Shown: positions 23,201 through 29,200, counted from the stretch's first letter. The stretch is 64,000 nt of DNA from Anaerobacterium chartisolvens (GCF_003337415.1 NZ_QPJT01000024.1:1-64000), one strand, 5' to 3'. Made by a program: the numbers.

Positions 23201-26200
23201 ATATTTATCCTTTCTCAGGCCGAACAGGTCAAATAGCAGGATGATGGCACTTTCATACAACACATCGGATTTCTCAGCCTCAATACAGAATTCGATAAGC
23301 TTTGTGCCGGCCGCTGAAAACCTGAAAGAAAAAAACACAGTATCATCCAAGCTTTCATGGAAGGTTACCTCATGCGCAACGTGCAGGTTATCTTTATAGC
23401 TTCCTTCCAATATATCCTGTATTGTGATATCCGCAAGATACTTTTCAATGATCCGTTTTTTATAAATATTAACTCGTTTCTTCCCTTCATGCTGGTAGTA
23501 AATAGCCTTCATCAACCATTCAAAGCTGATATGTTTAGCTTTGAATAAATTTACTTCCTGCGTAATGAGCAGAAATGCCTTTATAAATTCTTCAAATGAA
23601 AAATCAAATAGCGCAGCCTCCACATACCATAAATCAGCCATTTCAAGCAACTTAGTTATTTTTTCTATGATCCTCGGATCAAAAAGAATCTTTTCATATT
23701 CTGCATCAAAATTCTCGCCGTTACTAATAGATACAGCTCTTAAACGACTTATTCTTTCCTTGACCTCATACTGTTTATCAAACTTCCCTTTTATAACATA
23801 TCCGATTACCTCGCACACCTGTTTGCTTATATCTGTCCATATACCTTCATCAACTGCAGTCACAATACAATAATTGAGTGCCTTTAATATTTCTTTCAAC
23901 TCGGTAGCTGACATTTTATTGTCTTCAACAAGTTGGTAGAGTGGTTTGTTATCCGTAAGTGGCACCTCTCCTCTTATGTACTGTCCTATCAAGCCATGAG
24001 TTTGAATAAGGTTGTGTACTATCCTCTTGATTTCAGGGTTTGATTCTTCAGATTGCTCTAGATAGATTTCTGCAGAGCCAATATTATGGGCAAAGAGGTT
24101 GAACCCTTTATTTATCCACTGTTTCCTTTGATGCGCAAGCCCAGATTTGGCAACCTCAGACCATTTTAATGTCTCTTCAATTATATAGGCTTGGTCCTCA
24201 CTTAGCTTCAAGGTTGCAAGTGCTTTAAGTGTTTTTTCTACATAGTTTAGTACGTAATTATTTCTCATTTCCTCAAGGGAGTTAAGACGTTCAAGATTGA
24301 TATTGCTCTCTGATGTTAATGCTAGATACTTGAGCCATTTTTCGCTTTTAAGCACCTTCAGATCGCCATTCTTTATTCTTTCTATAGCTGTTAAAGATTT
24401 CAATGTAACACCTCACCACGTATACGTTCTATGGCAAATGCCAGTATTTTAGCATGATCGAAGGCAATTCCCTTCGTATCCAGAATATCACATTTCACAT
24501 TTTTGTTATACAATGAATCAGTTGCTACCCTATCAAGCGTAGCAGTAAGCTTAGTATTTTCATTTGTTAGTACAAGGCTGTATTGCTCTTGTGTTGTATT
24601 TCCATTTATTATTTCTTGTGTGGATGTATCGAGTTTCATATATTGAATATCAAACCACTGCGCATCAATGGCATCCTCACCAAATTGCATTTGAAGATTT
24701 TTCCCCTCAGTCAATGCTATAAAGGAACAAGAAACAATCCAACCTCTAGGATCGCGTTTCGGTTCACTGAACACTTGGAGTTGTGACAGGCAAACTTCCG
24801 ATATTCCCGCTTCTTCCTGTAGTTCACGATATGCTGCTTGTTCTACTGATTCGCCAGGTTTTACAAAACCACCAGGCAAAGCCCAATTATTCATGTATGG
24901 GTGTTCCCCACGTTTTATCAGAAGAACAGAAAGTCGTTTCTCAGATAAATCATTACACTCATTCATCTCACCATTATTTAAAGCAAATACAGCTATATCA
25001 GCTGCAAGAGATGGCCTTTGATAATCTTCAATTCTATATGCCTTTAAAAACTCTTTTTCACCTTCAGAACGTTGATCTGCCTTATTAAAAAGTTCCGTTA
25101 GCTCTACTTTTGACTTATCTGAATAAAATAGCGGAATAACACCATTGATATAATCCGCACCTCGTTTTGTCAGGAAAATCCTGTTTCCCTTTATTTCCAT
25201 TAGCCCTTCCTGTGTAGCAAACTCAACTTCATTCTTAAAATGCTCTAAAAATGAAACACCAAATCTATTATGAAACGCTTCCAAATCTACAAATCCAAAA
25301 TAAAAAGCAACTGATACCATTTTAGCTATAGATTCTTCCTTCGGTAATCTATAAATGTCCTGTACTGGGAATTGATTATTTTCTATTTTATTTTGATATT
25401 TTGCTAACTGCTTACTTGCAGCACCTTCATTATATGCCAGGTAATCCATTCCAAACGATTGCGCCCCCAGTCCCATTCCCACATAGGGAATTCCATTAAT
25501 CACACGCTTTGTCAGGTAATCGCTTGTTCCGTAATCATCTTTTACTTTACTGAATGTATTTTTACCCTCATTTGCCATATAGCCATTTTCAAGCAATATT
25601 TCATATGCCAAACGATACTGACATATTATCTTATACAAAGATACCCCGTCTGCTTCCTTTTCTAATTTTGTTCCTTTGTAACGGTTACGGTACAGTGTTA
25701 TGTATTCAGGGTTTAAGGAAATTGCATAACGAATTGTATTTTCGAATTCCTCATTACTTTGATGTAGAAAGCCATACATAAGATCAATATTGAATTGCTT
25801 AAACCCAGCTTTTCTAATATTTTGCGTGGCTTGTTCATATATATGGGTTGTTCCTTCTCTTCCCAACTCGTTTAGCAGTTTTTCAGAAACGGTTTGAATA
25901 CCCATACTAATTCTTTTATATCCCATCTCATAAACTTCTAAAATTTTTTCAGGTTCTTTAGCAGCAATAACCGGGGTTGTCTCTATACTGAAAATAACAT
26001 TATCTTGTATGTTAAATGAATTTGTAATAGCTTCTGTAATTTTCTTCAAATTGCCTGCTGACAATTTTGTTGGAGTTCCCCCTCCCATATCAAATCCTAC
26101 AATTTTTTTGTCCTTCAATATCGCCTTATACATTTGAATCTCTTTTAGAAGCAACGAAACATATAGATCCTCAGTACATATATCAACATCCTGCAATACA

Positions 26201-29200
26201 GCATATTCACAAAAATTGCATCTTACCTTGCAAAATGGTATATGTACATAGAGACTCAATTCGTCTGCCTTTGCCCATTCCGAAGTCAGAAAATTTTGTA
26301 TTTGCGATGGGTCATTAATACGATATTCCATAAATGATTTTGGAGTCAAAGGATATGCTGTATTTGCATAGTGATGATACAACAGTCCATTTTCAAATAT
26401 TAGATTTGCGTTCATATTCGTCCACCTTCTTCTAAATTATTAGGCTTCCTTTAGTTCTTATTAAAAGCTCCCACAAATTTCTAGATATTTTCTATATGTA
26501 TCCTCATCGAAGCAAACCATCAACACCTTCTCAATACTTGAATCTGTTTCAAGGAACCTCTTAATCTCATTAATGGCTATCATTGCTGCCTTTTCTACAG
26601 GAAACCTGTATGCGCCTGTACTTATTGACGGATAAGCTATGGTTCTTACACCATTTTTAACCGCTAGTTCTAAAGAATTTCTATAGCATGTTGCCAAAAG
26701 TTCGTCTTCTCCTTTATTTCCTCCCTGCCAAACAGGTCCTACAGTGTGGATAACCCAATTAGCGGATAATTTGTACCCCTTTGTTATCTTAGCTTGACTG
26801 GTTTTGCAACCATGAAGTTCCCTGCATTCCATAACCAATTCCGGTCCTGCCGCTCTGTGGATGGCTCCATCCACACCACCGCCACCAAGTAGTGAAGTGT
26901 TAGCCGCATTTACTATCGCATCAACATTCTGCTTCGTTATATCACCTTTAATCACTTCAAATCTATCTATCACAACAAATCCCTCCATTTTATTTTACAG
27001 AATACTCTTGCAGTAGTCTTTCTTTCATCTCCCATAAAGGCTTTGACAAGTCGACATAGTATTTATGAGGATTTTCAAACCTTTTGACTTCATCCCATAA
27101 CGTATCAATCTGCTCTTTGCAATAGCTCTTTATAACTTTCAATTTAGGACTTTCATATACACAAGTTCCTTTATCAAAAATCTTAGTCAAAAGCCTTTTA
27201 GCATAGAAATTTGTTACAGTCTTTCTCTTCCATGTATACTCAGGATCAAATAATTCATAAGGCTTGTTCTCATCTATAGTTTCTTCGTTAGTTGTTAGCA
27301 CATCCGCTATTGCTTTCCCAGTCTCTTTATCAAAAAGCCTCCAAGTATTTTTGAATCCAGGATTGGTAATTTTGCCTACATTCTCGCTAAGCTTTATCTT
27401 GGGAACTATTTCACCATTTTTCTCAACAGCCACCAGCTTGTAAACCCCACCAAATACAGGCTCTGACTTGGAAGTGATAAGACGTTCACCGACACCGAAC
27501 AAATCCACCTGCGCACCTTGCATAAGAATATCCCTGATAATAAATTCATCCAAAGAATTGGATGCTACAATCCTGCAATCTTGGAAGCCTGCTTCATCCA
27601 ACATTCTCCTTGCTTCCTTTGACAGATAAGTAATATCTCCGCTATCTATTCTTATACCCTTGGGCCTGAAGCCTCTTGGAACTATTTCTTCATTGAATAC
27701 TTTTATAGCATTAGGAATACCGGATTTCAGTACATTATAGGTATCTACAAGGAATGTGCAATTCTCAGGATAGACCATAGCATAAGCCCGAAAAGCCTCA
27801 AGTTCCGTTGAAAACATCTGAATCCAGCTGTGAGCCATTGTACCTATGACTGGAATATCAAAATCTCTCTCAGCAATAGTACATGCTGTTCCAACACAGC
27901 CTCCTATGTATGCTGCTCTAGCTCCATAGATAGCTCCATCATAACCTTGAGCTCTTCTTGACCCGAACTCCATAACGTCTCTTCCTTGCGCTGCTCTAAC
28001 TATACGATTTGACTTTGTAGCTATCAGACTCTGATGGTTTATCGTCAGCAGGACCATTGTTTCTATAAACTGAGCTTCAATAACAGGACCGCTAACCGTT
28101 ATTACAGGTTCATTAGGGAATATTGGAGTTCCTTCAGGTACAGCCCAAACATCACAGCTAAATTTGAAGTCTTTAAGGTATAGTAAAAATTCTTCACTAA
28201 ACAACTTTTTGCTCTGTAAGTACTCAATATCCTCATCGTCGAAACTAAGATTCTTTAAGTACTGTATAAGCTGCTCAACCCCTGCCATTATCGCAAATCC
28301 ACCATTATCCGGCACCTTTCTGAAAAACATATCAAAATATGCAATTTTATCTTTTAGACCGTTCTGTAAATACCCATTTGCCATGGTTAATTCATAAAAA
28401 TCAGTCAACATTGTTAAGTTCATCTTGTCCATTTATTCCACCCCCGCAACCACTTCTATTCCATTAATCATCATATTATACAATGCCATTGCATTCATCA
28501 TATCCCCGTTATGTGTTCCAAAATCATAGGTTTCAACCGCATCTACAGGAACAATAACTCTGGCTTTTTTATTTTGCATATTAAACCAAGTCTTTAGTGT
28601 TATCGCAAATTGTTGAACACATATATCTGTACAATCACCGGTAACAATAAAAGTATCAATTTTATTGTTTTGTTCAAACCATTTTTGGAATTCCTCTTCA
28701 AGGAAGCCGTTTGTAGAATTCTTTGGAATAAGAGTGTAGCCTCCTACTTCTTTGATTTCATCAACAATTTCTCCCTCGTAACTTCCCATAATGCAATGCG
28801 CTGGATATGCATCAAATTCTGGTGAAGCGACCGTATGGCAATCTGCAAATGCAAGCTTTGAAATCTCCAATTCATCGCACATCCTTGATAGCTTTGTTAT
28901 TTTAGGTATTAGTTCTTCAACTCTGGAGCTTTTTAATGCTCCTCCCCTAGCAAAGCCATTTATCATATCAACAATCACAAACGCTGTTTTCTTGCCCTGT
29001 AAATCTTTCAATTGAAGTATTGGAAGATTTGCCAGCATATCAAATATCTCTCCAAGAGTTTCAACACTTCTTTTTAAAAAATCATTTTTATTTATCATCC
29101 TCATATTGGTCATCTCCTCTCACTCAGAAATATTGGTCCAATTTGGGTTAAACTTGAATAATTTTGAAGGTCTGTGGCCTGCATCCTTGGTATACTCATT

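What the first reader, a model, noticed from the sequence alone, without database searches (positions are those of the whole stretch)
24400..26415. HemN/HemW-like radical SAM enzyme fused to a canonical Nudix domain
The N-terminal 450 aa is a HemN-family radical SAM (CxxxCxxC, GGGTP). The C-terminal 200 aa is a Nudix domain closely related to the two NrtR-like regulators in the window, but with an intact REUxEExGU box (RELQEEAGI). The fusion could be an ADP-ribose-sensing or ADP-ribose-hydrolysing radical SAM enzyme. I am not aware of a described example.
Basis: partly seen in the sequence, partly recalled or inferred. Interest (0 to 1): 0.6.

Follow-up and report, generated by a model that had tools for sequence, protein, structure and literature searches.

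The report
Radical SAM enzyme fused to NrtR-type Nudix
This gene really does encode one protein joining a HemN-like radical SAM enzyme to an ADP-ribose-type Nudix domain; it belongs to an undescribed family found in anaerobes that sits in ADP-ribose-controlled NAD-recycling operons, and its database names (heme enzyme or heme chaperone) are probably wrong.

Summary
Window 24400-26415 (- strand) is one uninterrupted 671-aa ORF with its own ribosome-binding site. It is 100% identical to Anaerobacterium chartisolvens WP_114299068.1.

- **Domains.** Residues 1-445 are a HemN-fold radical SAM domain. It has CxxxCxxC, GGGTP and the SAM-binding residues, but no fourth Cys and no HemW motif. Residues 451-671 are an NrtR-type Nudix domain with a canonical Nudix box, ending where NrtR's DNA-binding domain would begin.
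- **Not an artefact.** More than 120 protein clusters and at least 80 species-level genomes from about nine phyla carry the same architecture. 32 of the 120 also keep the NrtR winged helix, making them enzyme-repressor fusions.
- **Context.** About 25 of 80 loci read fusion-pncA-prs-PRTase-nadE. A 21-bp NrtR-like palindrome precedes 28 of 58 fusion genes against 19 of 545 other genes. In the window the palindrome abuts a perfect promoter of the nrtR-pncA-pncB-macro-fusion operon.
- **Membership.** No NCBIfam cutoff is met (HemN, HemW, ChuW, STM4012, NrtR). No paper describing the fusion was found.

Best reading: an ADP-ribose-linked, NrtR-regulated bifunctional enzyme of anaerobic NAD recycling. 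The Nudix half most likely hydrolyses ADP-ribose. The radical SAM chemistry and its substrate remain unknown. I rate it a new variant of known kinds.

The parts
24400..26415 (-). Whole ORF, 671 aa plus stop: HemN-like radical SAM domain fused to an NrtR-type Nudix domain (= WP_114299068.1)
25081..26415 (-). HemN-fold radical SAM half, residues 1-445 (N-terminal extension, TIM-barrel core, HemN_C)
   Evidence: Pfam. NCBIfam best hits STM4012/HemN/HemW/ChuW, all below cutoff. Foldseek to 1olt: TM 0.75, E 1e-24.
26209..26232 (-). CxxxCxxC cluster motif (C62, C66, C69). Tyr71 occupies the position of HemN's fourth Cys.
26071..26085 (-). GGGTP SAM-binding motif (residues 111-115)
25156..25290 (-). 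HemN_C domain (residues 376-420)
24403..25065 (-). NrtR-type Nudix half (residues 451-671). It ends after the AFDH linker helix; the wHTH is absent.
   Evidence: NF050029 NrtR model, 90.9 bits over residues 451-592. 2fml_A E 1e-24. Alignment with the window's NrtRs.
24802..24870 (-). Canonical Nudix box GX5EX7REUXEEXGU (residues 516-538)
24742..24756 (-). RDPRG motif (residues 554-558), invariant and shared with NrtRs
26422..26428 (-). Ribosome-binding site AAGGTGG
26461..26988 (-). Macro domain protein (O-acetyl-ADP-ribose deacetylase type), upstream gene in the operon
26990..28432 (-). Nicotinate phosphoribosyltransferase PncB
28433..29113 (-). Isochorismatase-family protein, probably nicotinamidase PncA
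29120..30040 (-). NrtR-1 (Nudix + NrtR winged helix), first gene of the operon
30087..30116 (-). Sigma-70 promoter TTGACA-18 nt-TATAAT (12 of 12 matches)
30065..30085 (.). 21-bp palindrome ATATTATCAATTTGTTAATAT, candidate NrtR operator immediately downstream of the -10 element

Best explanation
The gene encodes a bifunctional enzyme of the ADP-ribose (ADPR)-responsive NrtR regulon that recycles spent NAD in anaerobes.

Shown here:
- It is one polypeptide.
- Both halves carry complete catalytic or cofactor motifs.
- The family is conserved across phyla.
- It lies in NAD-salvage operons behind NrtR-type palindromes.

Inferred:
- In the window the gene is transcribed from the promoter at 30087-30116 as nrtR-pncA-pncB-macro-fusion.
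- NrtR sits on the palindrome at 30065-30085 until ADPR, the product of NAD consumption, releases it.
- Macro then converts O-acetyl-ADPR or ADPR-phosphate to ADPR.
- The C-terminal domain is an NrtR that lost its DNA-binding domain and kept a canonical Nudix box. It hydrolyses ADPR to AMP and ribose-5-phosphate.
- PncA and PncB recycle nicotinamide.
- The N-terminal HemN-like domain cleaves SAM on a [4Fe-4S] cluster. It uses the 5'-deoxyadenosyl radical on a still unidentified NAD-derived or ADP-ribosyl nucleotide substrate. The attached Nudix domain either supplies, removes or gates this substrate.

In relatives that keep the winged helix, the same protein is also the auto-repressor of its operon, comparable to NadR or BirA. 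It is not a coproporphyrinogen dehydrogenase or a HemW heme chaperone.
For: Fusion is real:
- 120 listed homologs share the architecture.
- The 80 genome loci kept, out of 171 tblastn-confirmed candidates among 185,579 species-representative genomes, span about nine phyla.

Radical SAM half looks catalytic:
- Y56, H58, C62, C66, C69, GGGTP, E145, Q174, R186 and D211 are invariant in the 32-sequence alignment. In the alignment these align with HemN Y56, H58, E145, Q172, R184 and D209.
- It is the most conserved part of the protein: 71-75% mean pairwise identity against 55% for the Nudix half.
- The model has a HemN fold.

Nudix half:
- E522, R530, E531 and E535 are invariant, and E534 is present in 117 of 120.
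- A canonical Nudix box occurs in 80 of 88 short forms.
- Best matches are NrtR, NadM-Nudix and 2fml/3gz8.

NAD context:
- PncA lies downstream on the same strand in 20 loci, Prs in 13, a NamPT/NAPRTase in 15 and NadE in 16.
- The palindrome precedes 28 of 58 fusion genes against 19 of 545 other genes (Fisher p = 6e-20). Several of those 19 are NrtR or PncA genes themselves.
- In the window, a 12/12 promoter is followed directly by the operator, and gene junctions in the operon are tight.

Independent, non-fusion link:
- In rumen Prevotella, a HemN-like plus small radical SAM pair stays next to NrtR, with or without ADP-ribosylglycohydrolase, through rearrangements.
- In the STM4011-4015 cluster, the HemN-like gene is paired with an alkaline-phosphatase-type nucleotide pyrophosphatase/phosphodiesterase.
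Against: - No substrate or reaction can be deduced for the radical SAM half. No known NAD-salvage step needs radical chemistry.
- About two thirds of loci show no NAD genes nearby, including all Bacteroidota, Desulfobacterales, Myxococcota, Fibrobacteres and Photobacterium loci, and no palindrome of this type.
- Glu conservation in the Nudix box is not unique to the fusion. NrtR-1 in the window also keeps it. Some NrtRs that bind ADPR are catalytically dead (PMC6800001).
- Residues that bind the second SAM in HemN (F310, Q311, I329; identified from memory of Layer et al.) align with I306, a variable residue and Q319. HemN-type chemistry is therefore not assured.
- Degenerate relatives exist that lost CxxxCxxC and GGGTP yet stay fused to NrtR. 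The domain can therefore persist without catalysis.
Confidence: 0.55

Rival explanations
1. Sensor or regulator rather than enzyme. The HemN-like domain acts as an Fe-S, SAM or redox sensing module, and the Nudix domain as an ADPR sensor. Long forms would be two-signal repressors. Short forms such as the window's protein would modulate free NrtR by heterodimerising through the Nudix dimer interface.
For: - 32 of 120 homologs carry the NrtR winged helix and have operators upstream of their own gene.
- Relatives P0141 and P0153 lost the cluster Cys residues and GGGTP but remain fused to NrtR_WHD.
- In a crude NJ tree, stand-alone NrtRs interleave with the long-form Nudix domains.
Against: - All 119 full-length homologs keep the cluster and SAM motifs.
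- The putative substrate-binding middle region is the most conserved part, at 75%.
- Most members (88 of 120) have no DNA-binding domain, and 80 of those 88 have a fully canonical Nudix box.
- Heterodimerisation with an NrtR that is only 38% identical is pure conjecture.
Confidence: 0.17
2. Class C radical SAM methyltransferase or cyclopropanase-like enzyme that works with the translationally coupled downstream class I methyltransferase (PRK06922, 22331-24403) on RNA or a nucleotide, as part of the window's RNA-repair island.
For: - The fusion's TGA stop overlaps the MTase's TTG start.
- The window is rich in RtcB, RlaP, SPFH, Tpt1 and WYL genes.
- A Cupriavidus plasmid gene annotated as STM4012 family is also followed by an overlapping class I MTase.
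- A HemN-like plus MTase-like pair is a known two-component design (C10P/C10Q, from memory).
Against: - The MTase, SPFH and WYL neighbours are absent from all 80 related loci, including the 91%-identical L006.
- Only the closest relatives keep RlaP/RtcB nearby (L007, L010).
- This reading cannot explain the family-wide NAD-salvage context.
Confidence: 0.1
3. The database annotation is right: the N-terminal half is a HemN coproporphyrinogen dehydrogenase or HemW heme chaperone that happens to be fused to a Nudix domain.
For: - Sources name it 'oxygen-independent coproporphyrinogen-3 oxidase' or 'Heme chaperone HemW'.
- HemN (1olt) is the closest solved structure.
Against: - Scores are below the curated cutoffs: hemN 176.5 against 324.95, HemW 146.4 against 205.4, ChuW 140.4 against 400.
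- Tyr replaces HemN's fourth Cys in 119 of 119 sequences.
- The HemW HNxxYW motif is absent in 120 of 120, replaced by an invariant GTSDYLTxR.
- No heme genes appear in any neighbourhood.
- Many hosts are Oscillospiraceae, Lachnospiraceae or Ruminococcus, which I recall generally lack heme synthesis; this was not tested.
Confidence: 0.06
4. Assembly or annotation artefact: two genes joined by a sequencing frameshift or a missed stop codon.
For: In one Clostridium saccharoperbutylacetonicum assembly the gene is split into 390-aa and 230-aa pieces.
Against: The frame is continuous in the window. It is also continuous in more than 120 clusters and in at least 80 independent genomes and MAGs from many sequencing projects. 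The linker is conserved and modelled with pTM 0.81. The split copy is the exception.
Confidence: 0.01

Closest known systems
NrtR (Nudix-related transcriptional regulator of NAD metabolism; Rodionov et al. 2008, PMC2330246; structures 3GZ5, 3GZ6, 3GZ8 and 2FML)
   Same: - The C-terminal half is an NrtR-type Nudix domain with the RDPRG and AFDH motifs.
- It is 38% identical to the two NrtRs in the window.
- The genomic context is the classic NrtR regulon (pncA, pncB/nadV, prs, nadE).
- One quarter of listed homologs keep the NrtR winged helix and have palindromic operators upstream.
   Different: - A 445-aa radical SAM enzyme is fused to the N-terminus. The NrtR definition paper describes the family as Nudix plus wHTH and mentions no such fusion.
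- The window's protein lacks the wHTH, so it cannot be a DNA-binding NrtR.
- Its Nudix box is fully canonical, unlike most NrtRs.
HemN (oxygen-independent coproporphyrinogen III dehydrogenase, PDB 1OLT)
   Same: - Same fold (TM 0.75).
- N-terminal extension, CxxxCxxC, GGGTP and HemN_C are present.
- SAM-contacting residues Y56, H58, E145, Q172, R184 and D209 are conserved.
   Different: - 22% identity, and below the TIGR00538 cutoff.
- No fourth Cys.
- Residues at HemN's second-SAM site are not conserved.
- Family-specific invariant motifs are present: YHHYANTAYP, YRNRYKGT, GKNTFS, GTSDYLTKR.
- No heme context.
STM4012 family radical SAM proteins (NCBIfam NF006067) and their STM4011-4015 clusters; uncharacterised
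   Same: - This is the best-scoring curated family for the radical SAM half (195.9 bits).
- Close unfused relatives are paired with, or fused to, a small MoaA/viperin-like radical SAM protein, as STM4012 is with STM4011.
- STM4013 is a nucleotide pyrophosphatase/phosphodiesterase-type hydrolase, functionally analogous to a Nudix domain.
   Different: - The score is far below the cutoff of 380.
- No STM4011-, 4013-, 4014- or 4015-like genes were seen next to the fusion.
- The function of the STM401x system is itself unknown.
NadM-Nudix and NadR (bifunctional NAD enzymes; NadR is also a repressor)
   Same: - Precedents for an ADPR-pyrophosphatase Nudix domain fused to another NAD-pathway enzyme (NadM-Nudix; PDB 2QJO and 2QJT match the Nudix half).
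- Precedent for an enzyme-repressor fusion in NAD homeostasis (NadR).
   Different: The partner enzyme here is a radical SAM protein with no known role in NAD metabolism.
Class C radical SAM methyltransferases and ChuW/HutW (HemN-like; e.g. NocN, PDB 9P2U)
   Same: HemN-like core. NocN is the third-best hit among solved structures (77.5 bits over residues 49-257).
   Different: No family cutoff is met. No natural-product or heme-degradation context. Methyl transfer was not tested.

Membership tests
Radical SAM superfamily | CxxxCxxC motif for a [4Fe-4S] cluster, plus a SAM-binding glycine-rich motif | tested here: met
   C62, C66, C69 and GGGTP 111-115. Pfam PF04055 68.1 bits against a cutoff of 29.5. 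Invariant in the family.
HemN (coproporphyrinogen III dehydrogenase, TIGR00538) | Score at or above the curated equivalog cutoff | tested here: not met
   176.5 bits against a cutoff of 324.95
HemN (coproporphyrinogen III dehydrogenase, TIGR00538) | Fourth conserved Cys (CxxxCxxCxC; essential C71 in E. coli HemN, from memory of Layer et al.) | tested here: not met
   Tyr at that position in 119 of 119 homologs
HemN (coproporphyrinogen III dehydrogenase, TIGR00538) | HemN three-dimensional fold, including the N-terminal extension and C-terminal domain | tested here: met
   AF2 model pLDDT 83. Foldseek to 1olt: E 1e-24, TM 0.75.
HemN (coproporphyrinogen III dehydrogenase, TIGR00538) | Coproporphyrinogen III oxidative decarboxylation, or a heme-biosynthesis context | tested here: not met
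   Context only: no heme genes in the window or in 80 loci. Enzyme activity cannot be tested with these tools.
HemW heme chaperone (TIGR00539) | Score at or above the curated cutoff; no N-terminal extension; HNxxYW motif (motif recalled from memory) | tested here: not met
   146.4 bits against a cutoff of 205.4. A 50-aa conserved N-terminal extension is present. HNxxYW occurs in 0 of 120.
ChuW/HutW (TIGR04107) | Score at or above the curated cutoff | tested here: not met
   140.4 bits against a cutoff of 400
STM4012 family radical SAM protein (NF006067) | Score at or above the curated cutoff, and STM4011/4013-4015 neighbours | tested here: not met
   195.9 bits against a cutoff of 380. None of the conserved neighbour clusters that were annotated is STM401x-like, but not every neighbour was scanned. 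The true cluster is shown.
Nudix hydrolase superfamily | Nudix box GX5EX7REUXEEXGU on a Nudix fold | tested here: met
   GFVKPGESVEQAAYRELQEEAGI at residues 516-538. PF00293 65.7 bits against a cutoff of 21.1. Nudix-fold matches.
ADP-ribose pyrophosphatase (functional class) | Hydrolysis of ADPR to AMP and ribose-5-phosphate | not testable with these tools
   Indirect evidence only. Closest relatives are NrtR (binds ADPR, 3GZ8) and NadM-Nudix ADPRases. Catalytic residues are invariant.
NrtR transcriptional regulator (NF050029; Rodionov 2008) | N-terminal Nudix-like domain of the NrtR type | tested here: met
   NF050029 aligns to residues 451-592 (90.9 bits). 38% identity to both window NrtRs.
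NrtR transcriptional regulator (NF050029; Rodionov 2008) | C-terminal winged-helix DNA-binding domain (PF21906) | tested here: not met
   Absent from the window's protein, which ends after the AFDH helix. Whole-protein score 90.9 against a cutoff of 400. Present in 32 of 120 homologs.
NrtR regulon member | NrtR-type palindromic operator in the promoter, and co-localisation with NAD genes | tested here: met
   In the window, the palindrome at 30065-30085 abuts the -10 element of the operon promoter. Family-wide enrichment is 28/58 against 19/545. That NrtR binds this palindrome is inferred, not shown.
Known anti-phage defence systems (PADLOC-DB) | Significant match to a defence protein model | tested here: not met
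   Only weak generic Nudix and radical SAM hits (28.7 and 17.7 bits)

The most novel reading that the evidence does not exclude
The HemN-like domain performs radical chemistry directly on ADP-ribose, NAD or a derivative. That would make it the first radical SAM enzyme of NAD/ADP-ribose metabolism. It would be physically coupled to a Nudix domain that cleaves or presents the nucleotide. In the winged-helix-bearing relatives, one polypeptide would then be enzyme, ADPR sensor and operon repressor at once, making or destroying its own effector in the manner of BirA or NadR. The wider STM4012-like clade, which pairs with nucleotide pyrophosphatases, NrtR and ADP-ribosylglycohydrolase, would be a family of nucleotide-modifying radical SAM enzymes used in NAD/ADPr conflicts.
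Probability: 0.3. Interest if true: 0.85.

Novelty: new variant of a known kind. Interest (0 to 1): 0.62.

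Why it matters
- **A gap in NAD recycling.** NAD recycling and its ADPR-sensing regulator NrtR are considered well mapped. No radical SAM step is known in that pathway.
- **A pointer to unknown chemistry.** This is a strongly conserved radical SAM enzyme, 71-75% identical across phyla. It is covalently tied to the NrtR/ADPR module and embedded in pncA-prs-nadV-nadE operons of gut, rumen and sediment anaerobes. That points to an unrecognised anaerobic reaction on an NAD-derived molecule, or to a new way of coupling Fe-S/SAM status to NAD homeostasis.
- **Annotation.** Hundreds of database entries are named HemN or HemW without meeting the family criteria.
- **A handle on an uncharacterised clade.** The finding gives a first functional lead on the STM4012-like radical SAM clade.
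- **Tractable hosts.** Cultured hosts are available for testing: Clostridium saccharoperbutylacetonicum, Pseudobacteroides cellulosolvens and Photobacterium aphoticum.

Tried and rejected
- **Frameshift or missed stop.** Rejected.
- **Heme enzyme or chaperone.** Curated cutoffs and signature residues are not met, and there is no heme context.
- **Functional unit with the downstream PRK06922 methyltransferase, SPFH, WYL or RtcB genes.** tblastn of all window neighbours against 80 related loci found the MTase, SPFH and WYL genes in none. RtcB and RlaP appeared only in the closest relatives.
- **Known defence system.** PADLOC gave nothing meaningful.
- **Phage- or plasmid-borne copies.** No full-length fused copy in 50,697 phage or 72,556 plasmid records.
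- **The window's second radical SAM gene (11114-12358) as the STM4011-like partner.** It is a PqqE/SPASM-type protein with only generic similarity.
- **Contexts of unfused and degenerate relatives (P0122, P0125, P0128, P0134, P0141, P0153).** Contigs were short or uninformative, apart from the HemN-like plus small radical SAM pairing.
- **Other STM4012 plasmid loci.** Contexts were heterogeneous and showed no common theme.
- **Literature.** Ten full-text searches found no paper on a radical SAM-Nudix/NrtR fusion or on STM4011-4013 function. Burroughs & Aravind 2016 and Huang et al. 2009 were not held, so the ADPR-contact residues of NrtR could not be checked one by one.
- **Rfam and tRNA scans of the window.** Empty.
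- **Predicted terminators inside the operon.** Not above chance (13 found against 8.1 ± 3.2 expected).

Full report
**1. The observation**

Window 24400-26415 on the minus strand is one open frame of 671 codons, running from ATG (26415) to TGA (24400-24402). An AAGGTGG ribosome-binding site lies 6 nt upstream of the start.

Pfam finds Radical_SAM at residues 56-230, HemN_C at 376-420 and NUDIX at 494-593. CKVRCNFC is at residues 62-69, GGGTP at 111-115, and a textbook Nudix box, GFVKPGESVEQAAYRELQEEAGI, at 516-538.

The Nudix half is 38-39% identical (E 1e-46 to 1e-52) to both NrtR genes of the window, at 29120-30040 and 8793-9695.

**2. Not an artefact**

- The protein is 100% identical to Anaerobacterium chartisolvens WP_114299068.1, UniProt A0A369AUR5. 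This organism is in the Oscillospiraceae.
- The 120 best clusters in a 5.8-billion-protein search all carry Radical_SAM(+HemN_C)+NUDIX at 57-91% identity over the full length.
- A scan of 185,579 species-representative genomes found 171 relatives. The 80 loci kept match the query from residue 1-7 to about 590-671 on one strand.
- Hosts include Bacillota, Bacteroidota, Desulfobacterales, Myxococcota, Fibrobacteres, Victivallales, Planctomycetia, Spirochaetales, Verrucomicrobiota and Photobacterium aphoticum.
- AlphaFold gives mean pLDDT 83 and pTM 0.81 for the whole chain.

**3. Anatomy of the radical SAM half**

The fold is that of HemN (1olt: Foldseek E 1e-24, target TM 0.75; phmmer 86.8 bits).

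Invariant residues in a 32-sequence alignment include Y56, H58, C62, C66, C69, G111-P115, E145, Q174, R186 and D211. In the HemN alignment these correspond to HemN Y56, H58, the cluster cysteines, GGGTP, E145, Q172, R184 and D209. I recall these as the cluster and SAM-binding set of HemN.

The family also differs from HemN and HemW in several respects:
- Tyr replaces HemN's fourth Cys in 119 of 119 sequences.
- The HemW HNxxYW motif (recalled from memory) is absent in 120 of 120. An invariant GTSDYLTxR takes its place.
- The HemN second-SAM residues F310, Q311 and I329 (recalled from memory) align with I306, a variable residue and Q319.
- Curated NCBIfam scores are all below cutoff: STM4012 195.9/380, hemN 176.5/325, HemW 146.4/205, ChuW 140.4/400.

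This half is the most conserved part of the protein. Mean pairwise identity is 71% in the core and 75% in residues 246-375, against 55% for the Nudix domain. That argues for a constrained catalytic site with its own substrate.

**4. Anatomy of the Nudix half**

The best curated hit is the ADPR-responsive repressor NrtR (NF050029, residues 451-592). NadM-Nudix ADPR pyrophosphatases follow. The best solved relatives are 2fml (an NrtR-like protein, E 1e-24) and the Shewanella NrtR Nudix domain bound to ADP-ribose, 3gz8.

Across 120 homologs E522, R530, E531, E535 and RDPR 554-557 are invariant, and E534 is present in 117 of 120.

The window's protein ends straight after the conserved AFDH helix. 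At that point the two neighbouring NrtRs continue into their winged helix. It is therefore a truncated NrtR.

Of the 120 homologs, 32 are 718-748 aa long and keep the NrtR winged helix PF21906. A fully canonical Nudix box occurs in 80 of 88 short forms but only 11 of 32 long forms, where G->N is common. This fits short forms being hydrolases and long forms being regulators.

**5. Genomic context**

In the window the genes form a tightly packed minus-strand series:
- nrtR (29120-30040)
- pncA-like isochorismatase (28433-29113)
- pncB (26990-28432)
- macro (26461-26988)
- the fusion (24400-26415)

A perfect sigma-70 promoter (TTGACA-18 nt-TATAAT, 30116-30087) is followed directly by the 21-bp palindrome ATATTATCAATTTGTTAATAT at 30065-30085. 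This is the position a repressor would occupy.

Across the 80 related loci, the window's downstream neighbours (PRK06922 methyltransferase, SPFH, WYL) are never conserved. De novo clustering of neighbouring ORFs found other recurring same-strand downstream genes:
- an isochorismatase/PncA in 20 loci, 15 of them within 300 bp
- a Prs-like PRPP synthetase in 13 loci
- a NamPT/NAPRTase in 15 loci
- NadE in 16 loci

About 25 loci read fusion-pncA-prs-PRTase-nadE, or have a stand-alone nrtR next to the fusion.

The palindrome ATATTATCA-N3-TGATAATAT (up to 4 mismatches) lies within 200 bp upstream of 30 of 70 fusion genes. The background rate is 0.01 per 200 bp. I then used upstream regions of other genes with a gap of at least 60 bp as a stricter control. 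The palindrome precedes 28 of 58 fusion genes against 19 of 545 other genes (odds ratio 26, Fisher p = 6e-20). Several of the 19 are nrtR, pncA or divergent neighbours sharing the same intergenic region.

The palindrome fits the 21-bp palindromic architecture reported for NrtR sites (PMC2330246). Binding by NrtR is inferred, not shown.

In other phyla the gene usually stands alone, and I found no operator of this type there.

**6. Wider relatives of the radical SAM half**

An exhaustive profile search with residues 1-445 found 320 clusters below E 1e-30. The nearest non-Nudix relatives fall into these groups:
- unfused proteins at 43-53% identity (P0122, P0123, P0125)
- fusions to a second, MoaA/viperin-like radical SAM domain (P0126, P0128, P0134, P0160)
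- a fusion to a 2Fe-2S ferredoxin (P0135)
- two degenerate branches still fused to Nudix and/or the NrtR winged helix that have lost CxxxCxxC and GGGTP (P0141, P0153)

P0122 is followed by a 199-aa protein and a small viperin/MoaA-like radical SAM protein. This mirrors the STM4012-STM4011 pair.

In a true STM4011-4015 cluster, STM4013 is an alkaline-phosphatase-type nucleotide pyrophosphatase/phosphodiesterase and STM4015 is an LRR protein.

In rumen Prevotella (plasmid pE2-28 and 21 metagenome loci) a HemN-like plus small radical SAM pair sits with a sigma factor, a bona fide NrtR (Nudix + PF21906), DUF6717/DUF1810 genes and an LRR protein. Where flanks allow it to be assessed, this association holds. 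An ADP-ribosylglycohydrolase accompanies the NrtR in some of these loci. The association survives inversions of the NrtR module.

The HemN-like clade therefore meets NrtR/ADPr or nucleotide-pyrophosphate hydrolases in three different genetic formats: fusion, neighbourhood and analogous hydrolase. This is the main non-fusion support for a nucleotide or ADP-ribosyl substrate. It rests on few independent lineages.

**7. Explanation and rivals**

*Best explanation (confidence about 0.55).* This is an NrtR-regulated bifunctional enzyme of anaerobic NAD recycling. The Nudix half hydrolyses, or at least binds, ADPR. The radical SAM half acts on an unidentified NAD-derived or ADP-ribosyl nucleotide. 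Winged-helix-bearing relatives are also the auto-repressor of their operon.
- Shown: the architecture, motif conservation, operon membership and operator enrichment.
- Inferred: ADPR specificity, Nudix catalysis, NrtR binding to the palindrome, and everything about the radical reaction.

*Rivals.*
- Sensor or regulatory module (0.17). Supported by the degenerate relatives and the long forms. Weakened by strict motif conservation and by the majority that lack a DNA-binding domain.
- Class C methyltransferase working with the overlapping PRK06922 methyltransferase in the RNA-repair island (0.10). The TTGA stop/start overlap and a Cupriavidus STM4012 + methyltransferase pair speak for it. Its absence from all 80 related loci speaks against it.
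- True HemN or HemW (0.06).
- Artefact (0.01).

**8. Novelty**

Ten full-text searches found no description of a radical SAM-Nudix/NrtR fusion. Reading the NrtR founding paper and the NAD-ADPr survey found none either.

Public annotation calls the protein HemN, HemW, 'radical SAM protein' or 'NUDIX domain-containing protein'.

Both domain families are known. The combination, its regulon membership and the implied radical SAM link to NAD/ADPR metabolism are new. I therefore rate it a new variant of a known kind, with interest 0.62.

**9. Limits**

- The radical SAM reaction is unknown.
- The operator consensus was derived from the same loci in which it was then counted. The comparison with other genes' upstream regions is the control for this.
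- The neighbour-joining tree has no support values.
- Several HemN and HemW residue roles are recalled from memory, not checked against a paper.
- ORF calling in the loci was a simple longest-ORF heuristic.

Noticed in passing
window 5116-9810 (- strand): A second NrtR-headed operon devoted to ADP-ribose removal. It reads NrtR-2 (8793-9695), NADAR (8291-8875), microbial PARG (7404-8291), ADP-ribosylglycohydrolase (6699-7367), Tpt1/KptA RNA 2'-phosphotransferase (6100-6639) and DUF7638/7639 (5116-6039). Its promoter (TTGACA 9805-9810, TATTAT 9782-9787) is followed by a perfect palindrome, TAACAAATTGTTA (9764-9776). That palindrome is a symmetric variant of the TATCA-N3-TGATA operator. The arrangement resembles the ARG-centred, Nudix-TF-regulated anti-ADP-ribosylation systems predicted in PMC9503650.
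   Followed up: partly
window 14893-22350 and 30193-33606: An RNA-repair island surrounds the finding. It holds RtcB (14893-16107 and 32449-33606), two RlaP nucleotidyltransferases (30193-30966, 31048-32049), two SPFH/Band-7 proteins (16166-17218, 21298-22350) and two WYL-type regulators (18950-20239, 17869-18741). The RlaP-RlaP-RtcB unit is transcribed divergently from nrtR and shares the operator-bearing intergenic region 30041-30192. NrtR/ADPR may therefore also control RNA repair here.
   Followed up: partly
window 22331-24403 (-): A 690-aa class I SAM-dependent methyltransferase (NF005379/PRK06922, 856 bits) has a TTG start that overlaps the fusion's TGA stop. It is absent from all 80 related loci. 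A Cupriavidus plasmid gene annotated as STM4012 family is likewise followed by an overlapping class I methyltransferase (L097).
   Followed up: partly
window 9968-13290 (-): A second, unrelated radical SAM protein of PqqE/mycofactocin/SPASM type (11114-12358). It is flanked by unannotated ORFs: 9968-11113 (381 aa), 12369-12794 and 12838-13290. This may be a peptide-maturation cassette.
   Followed up: partly
window 17219-17868: A 650-bp gap with no called ORF next to an SPFH gene. It gave no Rfam family at gathering threshold and no tRNA or tmRNA. I recall Band-7-linked RNA-repair systems being predicted to have a tRNA-like RNA, but I did not search for one.
   Followed up: no
window 20357-21301 (-): A 314-aa protein with no Pfam hit and only a weak NAD-kinase-like signal (E 8e-7, 29 bits against a cutoff of 260). 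It is translationally coupled to the upstream SPFH gene.
   Followed up: no
proteins P0141 (L087 7001-9142) and P0153 (L089 7001-9040): Relatives in which the HemN-like domain has lost CxxxCxxC and GGGTP yet remains fused to the NrtR winged helix. P0141 also keeps a Nudix domain. In P0153 the Nudix domain too has degenerated. They look like a radical SAM pseudoenzyme recruited as the sensor domain of a repressor. Both are stand-alone genes.
   Followed up: partly
L096 (Prevotella sp. E2-28 plasmid) and metagenome loci L099-L119: A conserved rumen Prevotella cluster reads sigma-70 factor, ADP-ribosylglycohydrolase, NrtR, DUF6717, DUF1810 (two copies), a hypothetical protein, a small radical SAM protein, a HemN-like radical SAM protein, a hypothetical protein and an LRR protein. 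The NrtR module stays adjacent to the radical SAM pair even when inverted.
   Followed up: partly
proteins P0135 and P0128 (L093, L094): Eukaryote-looking members of the same HemN-like clade. P0135 has a presequence-like N-terminus and a C-terminal 2Fe-2S ferredoxin. P0128 (HemN-like plus MoaA-like radical SAM, 840 aa) lies on contigs with tetraspanin gene fragments.
   Followed up: no
L016 9986-12729 (Anaeromyxobacter MAG): Here the fusion gene overlaps a downstream Maf-like nucleotide pyrophosphatase gene. This is a single case of another nucleotide house-cleaning enzyme in the same operon.
   Followed up: no
cluster of P0086 (Clostridium saccharoperbutylacetonicum): One assembly has the gene split into a 390-aa radical SAM piece and a 230-aa Nudix piece (NSB25373/NSB25374). 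Other strains have the intact 610-aa gene. This is probably a strain-level frameshift or a sequencing error.
   Followed up: no
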